A DNA stretch of 15,551 bases from a virus (Duplodnaviria > Heunggongvirae > Uroviricota > Caudoviricetes): positions 1-15,551 of the IMG/VR virus record IMGVR_UViG_2675903575_000009; one strand, written 5' to 3'. Below the pieces are notes generated by a model. That model was not told the origin of the DNA, made no database searches, and worked only from the letters and a program-made list of their open reading frames with translations. A program made the translations under genes and the position numbers. Within the stretch, counting starts at the first letter, position 1. Every line of letters starts with the position of its first letter. This document shows positions 1-10,971 of the stretch, piece after piece.

Positions 1-723
1 TTACGGGGTAATGCCAACCGCTGCCGCCACTTTGTCGCCACTAGTGCTTTGTTTTTCGAATTCATCTAAGGCTCTTTCAACATCAGAAAGATACTCTTTG
101 AATGAGTTCAAGATCATGCTTAACGAGCCCCCCATAAATAGGACCTGTTTTCCATCTTTTTTAAAAAAATCAGGATATTTTTCTATAAGTTCAATAATGC
201 TTTTAATATTTTGCCCATCGTTTTCTAAGTATTTTGCATCATTATGCGCACAACTGTTTCTTAATTTTGTTATTTTTTTGATATTCGAATAGTGGGATGT
301 TGACTTCATCCCTATCATTTTTTTGATAAATAGATGGCTCCTCTCAAATCCACTTCCTTTGAGATCTGAAACATTTATAGGAGAATGATGTCTATTAGCA
401 AAGTTGTTACAGAATTTTTCTATTTCGTGTTCAAAAATTCCGAATATAGTTAAGAATACTGACCTGCGGATAATACTTGGGTAGTATTCTAAAAACATTT
501 CATCGAGATCTAGCGATGAGCTGGTGAGTCCCATGTAATGATCAATTGACTGATATACACCATCTTCCGGAGATATTTCAATTATATATTCTTCAGGTCC
601 TTTGTCTTTATATTCTGCTATGCCCTTAGCGATTGATGATTCGCTATGAGTGATTAACGTCTCGATAATATCAAATGTTAAGGAGAAGTCGAATATTGGG
701 AATTGAAACAAAAACTTAACCAT
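1..723 (-). CDS. Hypothetical AT-rich cargo protein immediately downstream of int; contains an R-x4-H motif (RNSCAH) reminiscent of HEPN-type RNase/abortive-infection proteins
   Basis: Six-frame ORF 1..756 (251 aa) with stop at 1-3; I prefer the internal Met at 723 (weak AAGG about 9 nt upstream) over 756 (no RBS). Markedly AT-rich compared with the neighbouring int. Motif KLRNSCAHN fits the Rx4-6H HEPN signature, but one short motif is weak evidence. Confidence 0.5.
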   Translation of the reverse strand: MVKFLFQFPIFDFSLTFDIIETLITHSESSIAKGIAEYKDKGPEEYIIEISPEDGVYQSIDHYMGLTSSSLDLDEMFLEYYPSIIRRSVFLTIFGIFEHEIEKFCNNFANRHHSPINVSDLKGSGFERSHLFIKKMIGMKSTSHYSNIKKITKLRNSCAHNDAKYLENDGQNIKSIIELIEKYPDFFKKDGKQVLFMGGSLSMILNSFKEYLSDVERALDEFEKQSTSGDKVAAAVGITP

Positions 724-733
724 GCTTGAACCT

Positions 734-1765
734 TTAAGAATCTGATTTAGTAACATCCAAAGTTGCTAGTGGATTGAAACGAAGAGCTGTCTCTAAGTGA
801 TCAGGTGATAGATGAGCATAACGCATAGTCATTTTTATGTCGTGATGTCCGAGGATTTTTTGCAAAGCAAGGATGTTTCCACCCGACATCATGAAATGCG
901 CCGCAAACGTATGACGCAGAACGTGTGTAAGTTGACCGCGAGGGAGCACGATAGACGTTTTTTCCATCACGGATAAAAATTGAAAATAGCAGTCTGTGAA
1001 GAAATTGAACCCATCAAGCGCCATGATCTCTTCATAAAGCTCTTTACTGATAGGGATGCTTCTGTTTTTCTTCCCCTTCGTTCTTACAAAGGTAATTCGG
1101 TATTTGGTCACCTGTGATCGGGTAAGGTTTATTGCTTCTCGCCAGCGTGCGCCTGTGCTTAAGCATATCTTGACTACCAGTGCCAGAATTGGGTCCTGAC
1201 GTTTGCAATCATCCAGCAGTTCAACAATCTGCTCATGGGTAAGCCATGCCATCTCTTTTTCTGCGATGGTGAATTTTCGCATGTTCTCCAGTGGGTTTGG
1301 ATACGACCATTCGCCCAGGCGGGATAGTTCGCTAAAAACACTACTTAGATAGCTTTGCTCCAGGTTAATGGTGACCGGGCTGGCCCCTTTCTTCCATTTC
1401 TCGCTGAAGTAGATCTCACCTGTCAGTCGTTTATCTCGATAATGGGCAAACATTTTAGATGTGAGATCGGTTGCAAGGGGATTGCCCAGAGCGTCAACCA
1501 TCAGCAGCAATTTGTCATAGACATGCTGCCCAGCAGTCAGAGATTTACCATGTAGTTTGAACCATAGCTCAACCACGTCTTTCAGGGTTCGACGATCTAC
1601 TGATTCGCCCAGCCAGGGCTTTGCTTCGGTTTCTTCCATCGTGTGACGCTCAAAAGCCAGTGCTTCGCCTTTGGTGGCGAATTGTTTACGCACACGACGC
1701 CCACTACGTCCGGCGGGGTAACATTCGCAAAGCCATTTTCCTGTGGTGAGTTTTCGTACTGCCAT
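734..1765 (-). CDS. int: Tyrosine site-specific integrase (P2 Int-like)
   Basis: N-terminus MAVRKLTTGKW...RSGRRVRKQFATKGEALAFE closely parallels the P2 Int N-terminus; C-terminal catalytic region HVLRHTFAAHFMMSGGNILALQKILGHHDIKMTMRYAH carries the R...HxxR...Y tyrosine recombinase signature. The ORF track extends to 1843, but the conserved start is the Met at 1765, preceded by GGAGGG (1774-1779 on the minus strand). Confidence 0.92.
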   Translation of the reverse strand: MAVRKLTTGKWLCECYPAGRSGRRVRKQFATKGEALAFERHTMEETEAKPWLGESVDRRTLKDVVELWFKLHGKSLTAGQHVYDKLLLMVDALGNPLATDLTSKMFAHYRDKRLTGEIYFSEKWKKGASPVTINLEQSYLSSVFSELSRLGEWSYPNPLENMRKFTIAEKEMAWLTHEQIVELLDDCKRQDPILALVVKICLSTGARWREAINLTRSQVTKYRITFVRTKGKKNRSIPISKELYEEIMALDGFNFFTDCYFQFLSVMEKTSIVLPRGQLTHVLRHTFAAHFMMSGGNILALQKILGHHDIKMTMRYAHLSPDHLETALRFNPLATLDVTKSDS

Positions 1766-1794
1766 AAAAAATGCCCTCCAATAGAGAGTATTTT

Positions 1795-1818
1795 TACTGT
1801 ATGTATAACCAGTGTCAA
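1795..1818 (-). promoter_or_regulatory. Candidate LexA (SOS) box overlapping a sigma70-like promoter directly upstream of int
   Basis: TACTGTATGTATAACCAGTG (1795-1814) fits CTGT-N8-(A/C)CAG with an AT-rich spacer; the CCAG right half is the variant I recall from the uvrB box. On the minus strand a perfect TTGACA -35 (1813-1818) lies 17 nt from AAAAAT (1790-1795), so the box covers the spacer. 17 of 20 positions match the box at 8016-8035. Confidence 0.4.
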
Positions 1819-1951: not shown

Positions 1952-2143
1952 TTATCGCGAGTTTTTAGTACAGATTTTTTTTGATTTACTAATAGTTCCA
2001 TCATTGCAAACGAACTTTCCATCGGAGGTACAGTGAGAGACACCTCCCTTTTTCCCAGAACAAGGATAATTTTTAGCATAGGTAGTTAGTGGGTTTAATA
2101 ACAAAGAGCATGATAAAACCACAAAAAATACCTTACCAAGCAT
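1952..2143 (-). CDS. Small (63 aa) AT-rich secreted or lipoprotein-like Cys-containing protein between cI and int
   Basis: Strong RBS GGAGG about 7 nt upstream of ATG (minus strand, around 2150-2155); N-terminus [23 protein letters not shown] looks like a signal peptide (possible lipobox VLSC); the mature part has 4 Cys. AT-rich relative to the flanking cI and int. Confidence 0.5.
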
Positions 2144-2158: not shown

Positions 2159-2728
2159 TTACCTAACGTACTTAATTGTTAAACTTATAATTTTTCCAAT
2201 TATTTCAACATCTTCTATCTTGCACTCGAAGGCTCTGTTTCCACCTTCAACGAAGATTCTTCCACCGGGTAAACGAGTAATGTCGCGGATTGTTATTTCG
2301 CCATCAATACTTATTACCCATTTACCATCACGTATATCATCAAATTCTTTATCACAAATAAATTCAGAATTGTTATCTGTGATGACAAAAGGTTTTTTAA
2401 ACGTAGAGGGTAGAAATCCCTTATCAAAAATATAAAAACCGTCTTCACGCAAGGCACCATCAGATAATACATATTTAGCAACTTCCATCGTATTTGTATT
2501 ACCTGAAGTTTGCTTTGAACCATGTCCAGTTGTGAGCCAATTAAGCGAGGTGCCCGTTTCAAGGGCGCACTGGATTACCCATTCTGCTGGGAATGAGTCA
2601 CGCATGTAGCGTGTAGCGAGTGTACTTTTAGAGATTCCTAAATGATCGCACAACGCCTGTCGAGTTTTGAATCCATAAGCTTCTACCATGCGCTCTATAG
2701 CGCCTCGTCCGCCTTTCTCCAAATTCAT
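2159..2728 (-). CDS. cI: Phage CI-type immunity repressor (186 CI-like, HTH N-terminal domain)
   Basis: About 190 aa, the size I recall for 186 CI rather than the roughly 99-aa P2 C; N-terminal HTH-like segment KTRQALCDHLGISKSTLATRYMR; divergent from the cox/apl-like early operon. Start taken as ATG 2726-2728 (GGAG 5 nt upstream); the ORF track begins two codons earlier at a GTG. Confidence 0.8.
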   Translation of the reverse strand: MNLEKGGRGAIERMVEAYGFKTRQALCDHLGISKSTLATRYMRDSFPAEWVIQCALETGTSLNWLTTGHGSKQTSGNTNTMEVAKYVLSDGALREDGFYIFDKGFLPSTFKKPFVITDNNSEFICDKEFDDIRDGKWVISIDGEITIRDITRLPGGRIFVEGGNRAFECKIEDVEIIGKIISLTIKYVR

Positions 2729-2752
2729 GGTCACTCCAAGTGAACTTTTATC

Positions 2753-8508: not shown

Positions 8509-8719
8509 GAAACGTTGCTGGCGTCTGAACCTGCTTCTGGCGTCAGCAAGGTTGAACCGCGAGCCTTGAGAGGCGTTAACCATAAGTAAAAAGACAGTAA
8601 TCACTTGATTATCTATCAGGGCGAGACCTATGCTGCACTTTTAGTTATAACTCATAATGTATTGAAATTATTATAATATATGTCATTCTTAAAATGTGTA
8701 TGCTTATCAAGGAGCAAGA

Positions 8720-9592
8720 ATGAAACGTGGCATTGTAGCTAATCCTAATGAAATGAGTTTTCATAGAAATAATAGTACGGTCTATCTTGGGGCAGGTTTA
8801 ACTGAGCAGGATATTAATTATTTCTGCTTTTACTGGGATGATGTGGTTATTCTAGATAGTGAAAATATTCACTCGATTGTGCCTAAAGAAAAAGAATTAT
8901 TAGATAATGGGGTATTACGTAGACCTATTATGAAACATGATGGGATGCTGAATATCCAAGACTTTCCATTTTTATATACGGAATTTCAGTTGCAGACATT
9001 GGATGAATTCAGGAAGAACGAGCCTGCTACTTATTGGCACTTTCATCAAACAGGGGAAAATTTAATATATGATAAAGAACAGAAAACGGCCCTTCAGTTG
9101 AGATTGGAGTTGTTTAATGTTCTGAGAATTCCTGATAAAGATGCTCATATAGAAGATATATTACGTTTTAAAGATGATTGTCAGGATGATCTTAATGCGT
9201 TACATGAGTACTTAGAAAAACTGTATACTGAAGTCCTTTATTCTAGAGACCCTAATCTAACGAGGGCTAAAAATTTTTCTTTATTACAAGAGGCTGTAGT
9301 TAATCTTGATAAAGCTATCGAAGGGAAATGGAGAAATCCTATCAGAATGGGAGTCAAAGCCAATCCAGAAGTAGATGGTGGGCAGGTTCTGGAATTTTTA
9401 AAACCGTTGTACCATGCTGCTATTGCTGGTTATTCAGGCGGTATTATTCCCGGTATGGTTACAGCCTTGGCAACCGCAATTCCAAGTTTTATAAAATTCC
9501 AACCAGAATGGGTGGGCTTTAGAGATAAGGGGCCTAAAGAATTAGCTTATCTTACCAAAGCAACGCATAAGGGGTTGATTAAGAGAGCTTAA
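8720..9592 (+). CDS. Hypothetical AT-rich accessory protein (290 aa) with a C-terminal hydrophobic segment; candidate anti-phage or abortive-infection gene
   Basis: ORF 8696..9592; preferred start ATG 8720 with GGAG about 6 nt upstream. Strongly AT-rich against the GC-richer phage backbone; no family recognised by eye; C-terminal AAIAGYSGGIIPGMVTALATAIPSFI looks like a membrane helix. Location between A/tum and cos corresponds to the P2 tin/old accessory locus. Confidence 0.6.
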   Translation: MKRGIVANPNEMSFHRNNSTVYLGAGLTEQDINYFCFYWDDVVILDSENIHSIVPKEKELLDNGVLRRPIMKHDGMLNIQDFPFLYTEFQLQTLDEFRKNEPATYWHFHQTGENLIYDKEQKTALQLRLELFNVLRIPDKDAHIEDILRFKDDCQDDLNALHEYLEKLYTEVLYSRDPNLTRAKNFSLLQEAVVNLDKAIEGKWRNPIRMGVKANPEVDGGQVLEFLKPLYHAAIAGYSGGIIPGMVTALATAIPSFIKFQPEWVGFRDKGPKELAYLTKATHKGLIKRA

Positions 9593-9909: not shown

Positions 9910-10971
9910 ATGCTTAAAACAAATAAGGTATTTATTGACACACAAACGTACGTAAAGGCTGGTCTTCATTTTGAGGGGGTAGCATTTAAAGCTTTCCATG
10001 AATTATGTGCGAAAGGTGATTTAGTCTTAATTACAACTACAGTTGTAGAGAGAGAAGTAAAAGGTAAAATAGAGGAATCAATAAAGGATGCTCTGCAGGC
10101 TATAAACACAGTACAAAGAAAAGCTAGGCTTTTGAATAGTATTGATAATGGACCGCTCCATGGTTTTTTTCAGCAATTTAACGAACATGAAATTCACGAA
10201 GCAGCACAAAAAGTTTTTGATGATTTTTTGAAAGGATGTCACGCCAAATTAGCTACAATAGAAGTGATAGATCTTAATGAGGTTTTAGATAAATACTTTG
10301 GCAAAGAACCACCATTTGGGCAAAATAAGAAAAAAAGTGAGTTTCCTGATGCAATCAATTTAGCTGCGGTAGAGCGATTTGTTAATGATGAAGATGTGTA
10401 TATCATTTCTGAGGATAGTGACTTAAAAAATTATTGTGATGGTAAAAACAATCTTCATCAAATTGATTCACTTGATAAGTTTCTAGGTGAATACAATACG
10501 CATACAAACGAATTAAGTAATAAATTGATGCAGTTTATCGAAAGCAAACGTGAAGACATAAGAGCGGACGTAATTGCCCAACTCAATGATGCCGATGGAT
10601 ATAACGTTTCAACTTGGGAAGACGCTGAATTGGATTCATTTGAAGTCGTCAATATTGATGACTTTGAACCATCAATAATTAAGATTGACAATAATTATTG
10701 TCTAGCGACCTTCTCTGTTTCTGTAGATTTTGAAGTTACTGTTTCTGGTCCAGACTTTAATAATGGGTATTGGGATAGCGAAGATAAAGTAATGATTCCA
10801 ATGGAGACAACCACACGAACTGAAGTTCAAGAGATTAGTTTCGATATTGAAATTGAAGTTATGTATGAAATCGAGGATGGTGAATTAACAGATATCGCAT
10901 TTGATGTGAATATTGATAAGTTATCCCGAGGGATTGAGTTCTCTATTGAAGAAAATAATTTTGAATATTAA
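9910..10971 (+). CDS. Hypothetical AT-rich accessory protein (353 aa): possible PIN-like nuclease N-terminal domain plus highly acidic C-terminal domain; candidate anti-phage defence gene
   Basis: AGGA RBS 5 nt upstream of the ATG. The N-terminal ~175 aa have acidic residues spaced like PIN-domain metal ligands (VFIDTQ with D10; TTTVVEREV; FPDAINLAAVE; YIISEDSDL). The C-terminal ~150 aa are very D/E-rich with beta-like stretches. Strongly AT-rich; lies between cos and Q, where P2 has no gene. Confidence 0.6.
   Translation: MLKTNKVFIDTQTYVKAGLHFEGVAFKAFHELCAKGDLVLITTTVVEREVKGKIEESIKDALQAINTVQRKARLLNSIDNGPLHGFFQQFNEHEIHEAAQKVFDDFLKGCHAKLATIEVIDLNEVLDKYFGKEPPFGQNKKKSEFPDAINLAAVERFVNDEDVYIISEDSDLKNYCDGKNNLHQIDSLDKFLGEYNTHTNELSNKLMQFIESKREDIRADVIAQLNDADGYNVSTWEDAELDSFEVVNIDDFEPSIIKIDNNYCLATFSVSVDFEVTVSGPDFNNGYWDSEDKVMIPMETTTRTEVQEISFDIEIEVMYEIEDGELTDIAFDVNIDKLSRGIEFSIEENNFEY

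What the first reader, a model, noticed from the sequence alone, without database searches (positions are those of the whole stretch)
1..756. AT-rich cargo gene fused onto the 3' end of int, with an Rx4H (HEPN-like) motif
In P2/186 the integrase 3' end normally abuts the attachment site. Here a 240-251-aa AT-rich ORF begins within 11 bp of (or overlapping) the int stop, so it is probably co-transcribed with int. It carries RNSCAH, matching the Rx4-6H motif of HEPN RNases common in abortive-infection and toxin systems. A toxin-like gene tied to int expression would be a notable moron.
Basis: partly seen in the sequence, partly recalled or inferred. Interest (0 to 1): 0.6.

Follow-up and report, generated by a model that had tools for sequence, protein, structure and literature searches.

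The report
Solo HEPN gene inserted in integrase tail
A P2/186-like prophage carries one extra AT-rich gene, spliced into the last codons of its integrase gene, that encodes a stand-alone HEPN-type (predicted RNA-cutting) protein; it is most likely an anti-phage "moron" sitting in an already described minor cargo hotspot, so it is an interesting but not unprecedented find.

Summary
Window 1..723(-), or 1..756 from an upstream ATG, is a real 240-aa gene at 33% GC, against 47% for int. It is under purifying selection (dN/dS 0.08) and starts 10 nt after the int stop.

New here: the ~719-bp cassette sits inside int, about 14 codons before the ancestral stop. The ORF's last 13 codons (SGDKVAAAVGITP*) are therefore the old Int tail. 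Four unrelated cargos use the same breakpoint in E. coli. Homologues occupy the same slot in Enterobacter and Serratia prophages, and also P4-like satellites and plasmids.

There is no partner gene. attL, in the rybB terminator, lies 60-80 bp beyond the stop, followed by host rcdA.

Best reading: a solo HEPN RNase acting in abortive infection, expressed with int, analogous to HepS. Function is untested. The int-att hotspot was already published in 2026.

The parts
1..723 (-). HEPN-like cargo gene, 240 aa. RefSeq annotates 1..756, 251 aa, from an upstream ATG.
   Evidence: ORF list. The MVKF start is conserved in homologues. An AAGG Shine-Dalgarno sequence lies 7 nt upstream. dN/dS is 0.08. The AF2 model has pLDDT 86.3.
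44..761 (.). Inserted AT-rich cassette of about 719 bp, 33% GC, relative to cargo-free relatives.
   Evidence: blastn breakpoints against phage 4LV2017, and junction sequences. GC content.
1..43 (-). Remnant of the ancestral int 3' end (codons SGDKVAAAVGITP plus stop), now read in frame as the C-terminal tail of the HEPN ORF.
   Evidence: It is identical to the int 3' end of 4LV2017. The tail has pLDDT below 50 in the model. The same remnant lies out of frame or non-coding after the other cargos, and after the HEPN stop in L010, L013 and L018.
244..261 (-). RNSCAH, the putative catalytic Rx4H motif (R155, N156, H160).
   Evidence: Invariant in alignments A1 and A2. It sits at the end of helix 145-161 of the model, the position given for HEPN helix 3 in PMC3710099.
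424..483 (-). Conserved PSxxRRSxFLTxFGxxEHE block (P82, R86, E98 nearly invariant) in the long helix 73-111. E98 is the candidate helix-2 acidic residue of the HEPN active site.
   Evidence: Spatial proximity to the motif was not measured.
724..736 (-). int stop (TAA, 736-734), overlapping AAGG ribosome-binding site (734-731) and 7-nt spacer before the ATG at 723. No terminator or promoter match lies between the two genes.
734..1765 (-). P2/186-type tyrosine integrase, 343 aa, intact. Its C-terminus after ...NPLATL is replaced by the cassette-derived DVTKSDS*.
   Evidence: Pfam Int_N 2.7e-32 and Phage_integrase 4.1e-22. C-terminus comparison.
1790..1818 (-). Sigma-70-like site (TTGACA-17-AAAAAT) upstream of int; a possible int/cargo promoter in addition to read-through from cI.
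   Evidence: Consensus scan only: L001 7818-7790 corresponds to window 1818-1790. The number of promoter-like sites in the region is no higher than in shuffles.
2159..2734 (-). CI-type repressor gene heading the same-strand gene string cI, orf63, int, HEPN.
   Evidence: ORF list. RefSeq annotation of the identical region.

Best explanation
The gene encodes a stand-alone, expanded HEPN-domain protein, predicted to be a metal-independent RNase with R155/H160 as the catalytic pair. It is carried as accessory cargo by a complete P2/186-like prophage integrated in the terminator of the sRNA gene rybB.

The cassette entered int about 14 codons before its stop. That leaves the attP arm intact: two AAAACAATAAGTTAG repeats and the core hairpin lie immediately downstream. 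It gives Int a new short tail and leaves the HEPN ORF reading into the old Int tail.

The gene is most likely translated as the last cistron of the lysogenic cI-orf63-int transcript, and so made in lysogens. Transcription would end at the hairpin plus T-run that spans the att core.

By analogy with solo HEPN defence proteins such as HepS, it is probably kept inactive until an infecting phage triggers it. It would then cut tRNA or other RNA and abort the infection, protecting the lysogen population.

Shown here: the gene, the insertion anatomy, hotspot use, HEPN-type motif conservation and predicted fold, and solo status. Inferred: co-transcription, RNase activity, trigger dependence and an anti-phage role.
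For: HEPN identity:
- All profile hits are HEPN families: Pfam RiboL-PSP-HEPN and Abi_2; PADLOC HEC-01A (family not identified here), Cas13a and RTasHEPN.
- Among relatives, 93 of 117 hit PADLOC RTasHEPN (best 4.8e-10) and 24 of 117 hit Pfam HEPN_RiboL-PSP (best 4.2e-8).
- One homologue is named a Cthe-2314-like HEPN protein by UniRef.
- R155 and H160 are the only invariant columns in 117 diverse sequences.
- The model has pLDDT 86 and pTM 0.81, with the motif at the end of helix 3.

Cargo and hotspot:
- Four unrelated inserts share the same breakpoint.
- One alternative insert matches defence candidate PDC-S31 at 4e-23.
- Homologues 44-58% identical sit in the same slot in Enterobacter, Serratia and metagenomic P2-like prophages.
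- Others sit in the primase-att slot of P4-like satellites, once next to a DUF4238 gene.
- The literature names int-att as a minor P2 defence hotspot.

Solo status: there is no neighbouring partner in any context examined.

Selection: dN/dS is 0.08. The HEPN gene stays intact where int is frameshifted.

Expression: the genes are on the same strand with a 10-nt gap and an SD sequence. No promoter-like or terminator-like site lies in the int-HEPN junction. The best terminator match (9-pair stem) lies at the att core just past the stop.

Precedent: HepS is a solo HEPN abortive-infection protein encoded by a prophage.
Against: - No experiment supports any step of the proposed function.
- The protein itself is below every curated family threshold: 17.4 bits against 28.4 for PF18735, and only E 0.005-0.02 in PADLOC.
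- NCBIfam gives nothing.
- No deposited phage genome among 50,697 carries a homologue, so transfer within viable virions is not documented.
- Some distant family members sit in non-defence-looking neighbourhoods.
- Co-transcription rests on consensus scans and on knowledge of phage 186 recalled from memory.
Confidence: 0.55

Rival explanations
1. It is the toxin half of an addiction (toxin-antitoxin) module that stabilises the prophage. The antitoxin would be unrecognised: a small RNA, a small ORF, or Int itself.
For: Many HEPN proteins are TA toxins, and the best structural matches include HepT toxins. The gene persists in decaying prophages with frameshifted int.
Against: No MNT or other conserved neighbour is present in any of about 10 contexts. 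The only candidate small ORF, orf63 between cI and int, is also present in prophages lacking the HEPN gene. No Rfam hit or tandem RNA repeats were found. The next gene to the left is host rcdA.
Confidence: 0.12
2. It serves the phage itself rather than the host. Examples: an RNase that processes or retro-regulates the int/attP transcript, modulates host RNA during induction, or acts against satellites, plasmids or host defences.
For: It is tightly coupled to int and its transcript would run through attP. Homologues also lie in the leading region of a conjugative plasmid, near psiB and ssb, and in P4-like satellites.
Against: About 60% of related prophages in the 60-row sample have no cargo at all, and others carry unrelated cargo at the same site. 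It is therefore not part of int regulation. The same family occurs away from integrases.
Confidence: 0.15
3. It is a HEPN-fold protein that is not an RNase (for example a ligand- or protein-binding module), or a largely neutral passenger.
For: Some HEPN domains are non-catalytic. Family thresholds are not reached.
Against: R and H of the motif are invariant, and N156, E98 and R86 are nearly invariant, across a very divergent family. Strong purifying selection is seen. A broad spread of 2,129 cluster representatives keeps one architecture.
Confidence: 0.1
4. It is an annotation artefact: a chance ORF in AT-rich DNA downstream of int.
For: AT-rich sequence; the motif is at chance level on its own.
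Against: dN/dS is 0.08 with saturated synonymous sites. There are hundreds of full-length homologues and a confident fold prediction.
Confidence: 0.01

Closest known systems
HepS (STM14_3211) of Salmonella prophage Gifsy-1, a solo HEPN abortive-infection protein (PMC13043305)
   Different: No detectable sequence homology: a profile search of PDB sequences finds nothing at E <= 10. The host phage type and locus differ, since HepS sits in the lambdoid replication/antirepressor region. The trigger, oligomeric state and RNA target of the window protein are unknown.
HepT toxins of MNT-HepT toxin-antitoxin pairs (HI0074, SO_3166, PDB 7ae2/8xdj)
   Different: HepT proteins are about 130 aa and always paired with an MNT nucleotidyltransferase. 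Here the protein is 240 aa, has large inserts (beta-hairpins at 44-63 and 187-196, an extra helix at 125-137), and has no MNT neighbour.
Pfam RiboL-PSP-HEPN (PF18735), with Cthe_2314-like HEPN (PF18730), Abi_2/AbiD-AbiF (PF07751) and PADLOC RTasHEPN
   Same: These are the closest sequence profiles. The match is centred on the RNxxxH helix, and relatives of the window protein reach 4.2e-8 (PF18735) and 4.8e-10 (RTasHEPN).
   Different: The window protein is below the curated cut-offs: 17.4 against 28.4 bits, and 14.7 against 25.6 bits. No homologue carries a precomputed Pfam domain. No reverse transcriptase or L-PSP gene is nearby.
Accessory and defence hotspots of P2-like prophages (tin/old, Z/fun, and the minor int-att hotspot; PMC9122126, PMC13586616)
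   Same: Variable, AT-rich, mostly single-gene cargo lies at a fixed position inside the element. [quoted passage not shown]
   Different: The passages read did not mention this HEPN family, nor that the breakpoint lies inside the int coding tail. Current PADLOC models do not call this protein.

Membership tests
HEPN superfamily | All-alpha core of four helices (two alpha-hairpins), often with inserts between helices | tested here: met
HEPN superfamily | [quoted passage not shown] | tested here: met
   RNSCAH is at 155-160, at the end of helix 145-161. R155 and H160 are the only invariant columns in 117 homologues. The position criterion is taken from PMC3710099.
HEPN superfamily | Conserved acidic or polar residue in helix 2, close to the motif | tested here: inconclusive
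   E98 is nearly invariant and lies in helix 73-111.
HEPN superfamily | Dimer-built composite active site and metal-independent RNase activity | not testable with these tools
   No multimer prediction or biochemistry was available.
Pfam HEPN_RiboL-PSP (PF18735) | Score at or above the gathering threshold of 28.4 bits | tested here: not met
   17.4 bits, E 0.0043, matching only residues 141-188. 24 of 117 relatives match at E < 0.01.
Pfam Abi_2 (AbiD/AbiF) | Score at or above the gathering threshold of 25.6 bits | tested here: not met
   14.7 bits, E 0.038.
MNT-HepT toxin-antitoxin | Adjacent minimal nucleotidyltransferase (MNT) antitoxin gene | tested here: not met
   The neighbours are int on one side and attL plus host rcdA on the other. 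None of the homologue contexts pairs the gene with an MNT. In L022/L025 an MNT-HepT pair lies about 1.1 kb upstream, with another gene in between.
HepS family | Sequence homology to HepS | tested here: not met
HepS-like 'solo HEPN' defence (functional class) | Single prophage gene, no partner, anti-phage activity dependent on the HEPN motif | not tested
   Solo status and prophage location are met. Anti-phage activity and motif dependence need experiments.
P2-like int-att cargo hotspot | [quoted passage not shown] | tested here: met
   The cassette lies between int and the core AACAAAAAACCCAT shared with rybB. Four unrelated cargos share one breakpoint. The hotspot is named in PMC13586616.
PADLOC RTasHEPN (DRT-associated HEPN) | HEPN protein encoded next to a defence reverse transcriptase | tested here: not met
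   No RT is present in the window neighbourhood or in the homologue contexts. The protein itself scores only E 0.023.

The most novel reading that the evidence does not exclude
The protein is a founding member of an uncharacterised, widespread family of self-contained sensor-plus-effector HEPN RNases: at least 2,129 cluster representatives at 50% identity, with no Pfam or NCBIfam model and no PADLOC call. This family would be a new single-gene abortive-infection system that shuttles between the P2 int-att slot, the P4 primase-att slot and plasmids. The int-internal breakpoint would reveal how cargo is swapped without damaging attP. A more speculative add-on is that the captured 13-residue Int tail gives this allele a functional link to Int or the intasome.
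Probability: 0.3. Interest if true: 0.55.

Novelty: new member of a known kind. Interest (0 to 1): 0.4.

Why it matters
If the protein is an active defence RNase, it adds a new sequence family to the small set of single-protein HEPN abortive-infection systems, for which HepS is the only mechanistically dissected example I found. It would also supply a concrete, easily cloned candidate that current defence finders do not call.

The insertion anatomy is useful in its own right. It shows that the P2 'int-att' hotspot is really a breakpoint inside the dispensable C-terminal tail of int, with the last 42 bp of int kept next to the attP arm. That explains how cargo can be exchanged next to a recombination site without destroying it. 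It also gives exact flanks for mining further cargo: in a 60-row sample of about 1,135 E. coli genomes carrying this integrase type, roughly 40% carried something there.

It is not a new principle. Prophage morons, solo HEPN defence and this hotspot are all published.

Tried and rejected
- NCBIfam gave no hit.
- PDB sequence searches with the single protein and with the family profile gave only spurious coiled-coil or Mediator hits.
- Foldseek against PDB gave nothing significant; HEPN toxins appear only at E about 0.4.
- Foldseek against BFVD gave one uncharacterised metagenomic Myoviridae protein, E 2.4e-4.
- The afdb50 library was unavailable.
- A profile search of the 5.8-billion-protein set with A2 added no Pfam-labelled relatives.
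- Partner or antitoxin search: the left flank holds only attL and host rcdA. orf63 between cI and int was rejected as a specific partner because it is present in prophages without the HEPN gene. There were no Rfam matches and no meaningful tandem repeats.
- An N-terminal 'sensor domain plus C-terminal HEPN' architecture was considered. I judged it less likely than one expanded HEPN domain, because helix 14-41 and helix 73-111 fit HEPN helices 1 and 2, and the profile matches cover residues ~120-220.
- tblastn against 50,697 deposited phage genomes gave no match, so I could not show the cargo in a virion-derived genome.
- The antisense ORF 11..292(+) was dismissed as a by-product of the AT-rich coding strand; I judged this from its position only and ran no test on it.
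- A literature search for 'RiboL-PSP' gave nothing useful.

Full report
**1. The observation**

The minus strand of window 1..756 carries an open reading frame of 251 aa that ends exactly at base 1.
- The integrase gene upstream (734..1765, minus strand) has Pfam Int_N (2.7e-32) and Phage_integrase (4.1e-22) domains.
- The minus-strand junction reads ...CGT TTC AAT CCA CTA GCA ACT TTG GAT GTT ACT AAA TCA GAT TCT TAA AGGTTCAAGC ATG GTT AAG.
- The int stop is therefore at 736-734. An AAGG ribosome-binding site overlaps it, and an ATG at 723 follows after a 7-nt spacer.
- All close homologues start MVKF at this ATG, and relatives have no in-frame ATG further upstream. I therefore take 240 aa as the product. 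RefSeq annotates the 251-aa version.
- The insert is 32.9% GC against 47.1% for int.
- RNSCAH is at residues 155-160, window 261..244.

**2. Is the motif more than chance?**

On its own it is not. Rx4-6H occurs in 46% of shuffles of this protein, although RNxxxH occurs in only 0.7%. Conservation is what makes it meaningful.
- In 28 homologues from Enterobacterales, R155, N156 and H160 are invariant.
- An exhaustive profile search found 2,129 cluster representatives at E <= 1e-3, nearly all 200-250 aa. All but one full-length member (P0124, 222 aa) carry R[NDH]xxxH at about position 140-180.
- In an alignment of 117 of these, 19-50% identical to the query, the only invariant columns are R155 and H160. 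N156, E28, P82, R86, E98 and C105 are at least 90% conserved.
- The gene is under strong purifying selection: dN/dS is 0.08 against the Phytobacter orthologue, with synonymous sites near saturation.

**3. Is it HEPN?**

Sequence profiles:
- The protein is below every curated threshold, but every hit is a HEPN family. These are Pfam RiboL-PSP-HEPN (17.4 bits, cut-off 28.4), Pfam Abi_2, and PADLOC Cas13a and RTasHEPN, plus PADLOC HEC-01A, whose family I did not identify. PHROGs also gives an 'abortive infection resistance protein' family.
- Across relatives the signal strengthens. 93 of 117 hit RTasHEPN (best 4.8e-10) and 24 of 117 hit HEPN_RiboL-PSP (best 4.2e-8). Further hits go to pEK499_p136, MAE_28990, AbiU2, Apea and Cthe_2314 HEPN families.
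- UniRef names one homologue a 'Cthe-2314-like HEPN domain-containing protein'.

Structure:
- AlphaFold2 with the family alignment gives a confident model, pLDDT 86.3 and pTM 0.81.
- It has long helices at 14-41, 73-111, 145-161 and 200-235, a short helix at 125-137, and two beta-hairpins.
- The motif sits at the end of helix 145-161. [quoted passage not shown]
- The nearly invariant E98 lies in the helix that would be helix 2, where that paper places the conserved acidic residue.
- Foldseek is not significant.

I conclude that superfamily membership is well supported, at about 0.85. Membership of any named Pfam family is not. My inference is that the whole protein is one expanded HEPN domain.

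**4. Insertion anatomy (new relative to the finding)**

- The identical region occurs in E. coli NCTC9008 next to rcdA.
- Klebsiella phage 4LV2017 has the same integrase without cargo. Its int ends ...RFNPLATLPSGDKVAAAVGITP*.
- Window 1-43 is identical to that int 3' end. Homology resumes at about window 762.
- So a ~719-bp cassette replaced about 7 bp inside int, about 14 codons before the stop. Int now ends ...NPLATLDVTKSDS*.
- The HEPN ORF runs in frame into the old Int tail and uses the old int stop codon. The tail is disordered in the model (pLDDT below 50, residues 230-240).
- More distant homologues lack this tail and end at about ...EFEKSV. In Enterobacter ludwigii the HEPN gene keeps its own stop and the tail remnant (SGDKIAAAVGIAP*) lies just downstream in another frame. 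Similar remnants follow the gene in Serratia and in a metagenomic prophage.
- The in-frame fusion is therefore an accident of one lineage, not a family feature.

**5. A shared breakpoint means a hotspot**

A search with the cargo-free arrangement found this integrase type in 1,135 of 5,426 complete E. coli genomes. Rough shares below come from the 60-row evenly spaced sample of that search.
- About 60% are empty.
- About 25% carry a 350-bp insert encoding an 89-aa protein.
- About 7% carry a 481-bp insert encoding a 110-aa protein; BL21(DE3) is one of these.
- A few carry larger inserts.
- The HEPN allele is in 25 genomes.
- All four sequenced examples break at the same point and keep the 42-bp tail remnant. 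The new Int tails are DVTKSDS*, EV* and PTSIASF*.
- The 1.3-kb alternative (DUF2971) matches PADLOC defence candidate PDC-S31 at 4.4e-23.

A likely reason for the breakpoint, by inference, is the position of attP. Its arm starts right after the int stop: two AAAACAATAAGTTAG repeats lie at L001 5946-5982, and a hairpin spans the core. Insertion downstream of the stop would disturb attP, whereas the Int tail tolerates replacement.

[quoted passage not shown] The location is therefore known in outline.

**6. attL and the left flank**

- In K-12 the sRNA gene rybB follows rcdA.
- The lysogen and K-12 sequences are identical through ...gataacaaaaaacccat and then diverge.
- The prophage therefore sits in the rybB terminator, and the core matches the attL annotated in 4LV2017.
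- On the minus strand, AACCCGTTTACATAAATGGGTT followed by TTTTGTTATC is the best terminator match in the region. It lies 60-80 bp past the HEPN stop.
- There is no room for a partner gene, and no RNA family or tandem repeat was found.
- The NCTC9008 prophage runs from int to ogr next to ybjL and looks complete.

**7. Contexts of homologues**

- P2-like prophages with the order cI, variable gene, int, HEPN, host DNA occur in Phytobacter, Enterobacter ludwigii, Serratia marcescens and a metagenome. These use at least three different integration sites.
- P4-like satellites carry the gene just after the primase in Raoultella, where it is adjacent to a DUF4238 gene that weakly matches PADLOC DUF4238-Pers, and in Pantoea.
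- One copy lies in the leading region of a Pantoea conjugative plasmid. 136 plasmids in PLSDB carry homologues at 25-51% identity.
- The gene is solo everywhere.
- In four of the five non-E. coli P2-like loci read frame by frame (L006, L008, L010, L018, of which L006 and L008 carry the same Phytobacter-type locus), int is frameshifted while the HEPN gene is intact. This suggests selection on the cargo independent of phage viability.
- No deposited phage genome carries a homologue.

**8. Mechanism**

Shown: a solo HEPN-type protein encoded as the last gene of a same-strand string cI, orf63, int, HEPN. No promoter-like or terminator-like site lies in the int-HEPN junction, and the best terminator match lies at the att core.

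Inferred: from knowledge of coliphage 186 and P2 recalled from memory, where int is transcribed with the repressor gene from the lysogenic promoter, the protein would be made in lysogens. A sigma-70-like site upstream of int (window 1818-1790) may contribute.

By analogy with HepS (PMC13043305), I propose a latent RNase that is activated by an infecting phage and aborts the infection. HepS is constitutively expressed, has no partner, is inactive by default, is activated by a phage tail-tip protein and cleaves tRNA anticodon loops. The target and trigger here are unknown.

The rivals are a TA or addiction toxin with a hidden antitoxin, a phage-serving RNase, and a non-catalytic HEPN. They are less favoured for the reasons given in their entries.

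**9. Verdict**

The most informative additions are the int-internal breakpoint with capture of the Int tail, the multi-allele hotspot, the recurrence of the family in P2 and P4 slots, and the absence of any partner.

Novelty is modest. This is a new, unannotated HEPN family member in a published minor hotspot, and its function is untested.

Noticed in passing
L001 5897-6000 (immediately left of window base 1); K-12 locus L020 2480-2558: The prophage is integrated in the terminator of the sRNA gene rybB, with core about AACAAAAAACCCAT. The phage-side sequence rebuilds a hairpin plus T-run on the minus strand that would terminate the int/cargo transcript. Two AAAACAATAAGTTAG direct repeats, probable Int arm sites, lie between the core and the old int stop.
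   Followed up: partly
window 1952-2143 (-): A 63-aa ORF lies between cI and int (WP_001321204.1). It has a hydrophobic N-terminus and several cysteines, and no Pfam or PADLOC hit. The same cI-int slot holds large variable genes in relatives: PD-Lambda-1/SNIPE plus a 314-aa protein (Phytobacter), a 526-aa TPR protein (E. ludwigii), a 289-aa protein with a TIR-effector-like match (Serratia), and a KAP NTPase (metagenome). It is thus a second cargo slot beside int.
   Followed up: partly
window 8696-9592 (+) and 9910-10971 (+): The gpA-portal hotspot of this prophage carries a DUF6236 protein (6.5e-21) and a PIN_12-domain protein (1.1e-25). Neither is recognised by PADLOC. NCTC9008, identical to the window over 1-1900, instead has a TIR-domain protein plus hypothetical proteins there, so the window comes from a different strain or mosaic.
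   Followed up: partly
L006, L008, L010, L018 (integrase genes upstream of HEPN homologues): The integrase is split by frameshifts in prophages of Phytobacter, Enterobacter ludwigii and a metagenome, while the downstream HEPN gene stays intact. This suggests retention of the cargo in decaying prophages.
   Followed up: partly
L003 1664-1996 (BL21(DE3)) and L004 1635-1904 (ET896): Two small proteins of unknown function (110 aa and 89 aa, no Pfam or PADLOC hits) are the commonest cargos at the same int-internal breakpoint. The BL21(DE3) rybB prophage remnant carries one of them.
   Followed up: no
window 22-42 (L001 6022-6042): A near-perfect 10-nt direct repeat, TGCCGCCACT / TGTCGCCACT, lies inside the retained 42-bp int tail. 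It may be chance, or a protein-binding element that would explain why the tail DNA is always kept.
   Followed up: no
L021 15043-16794 (NCTC9008 prophage, outside the window): A 583-aa hypothetical protein on the opposite strand is inserted among the tail and baseplate genes, in the position of the Z/fun-type hotspot. It is further cargo in the same prophage type.
   Followed up: no
hit H100, NZ_CP128609.1 3029317-3029439: A 123-bp stretch 83% identical to the attL/arm region of phage 4LV2017 lies under a feature annotated as ompF in one E. coli genome. It may be a related att remnant.
   Followed up: no
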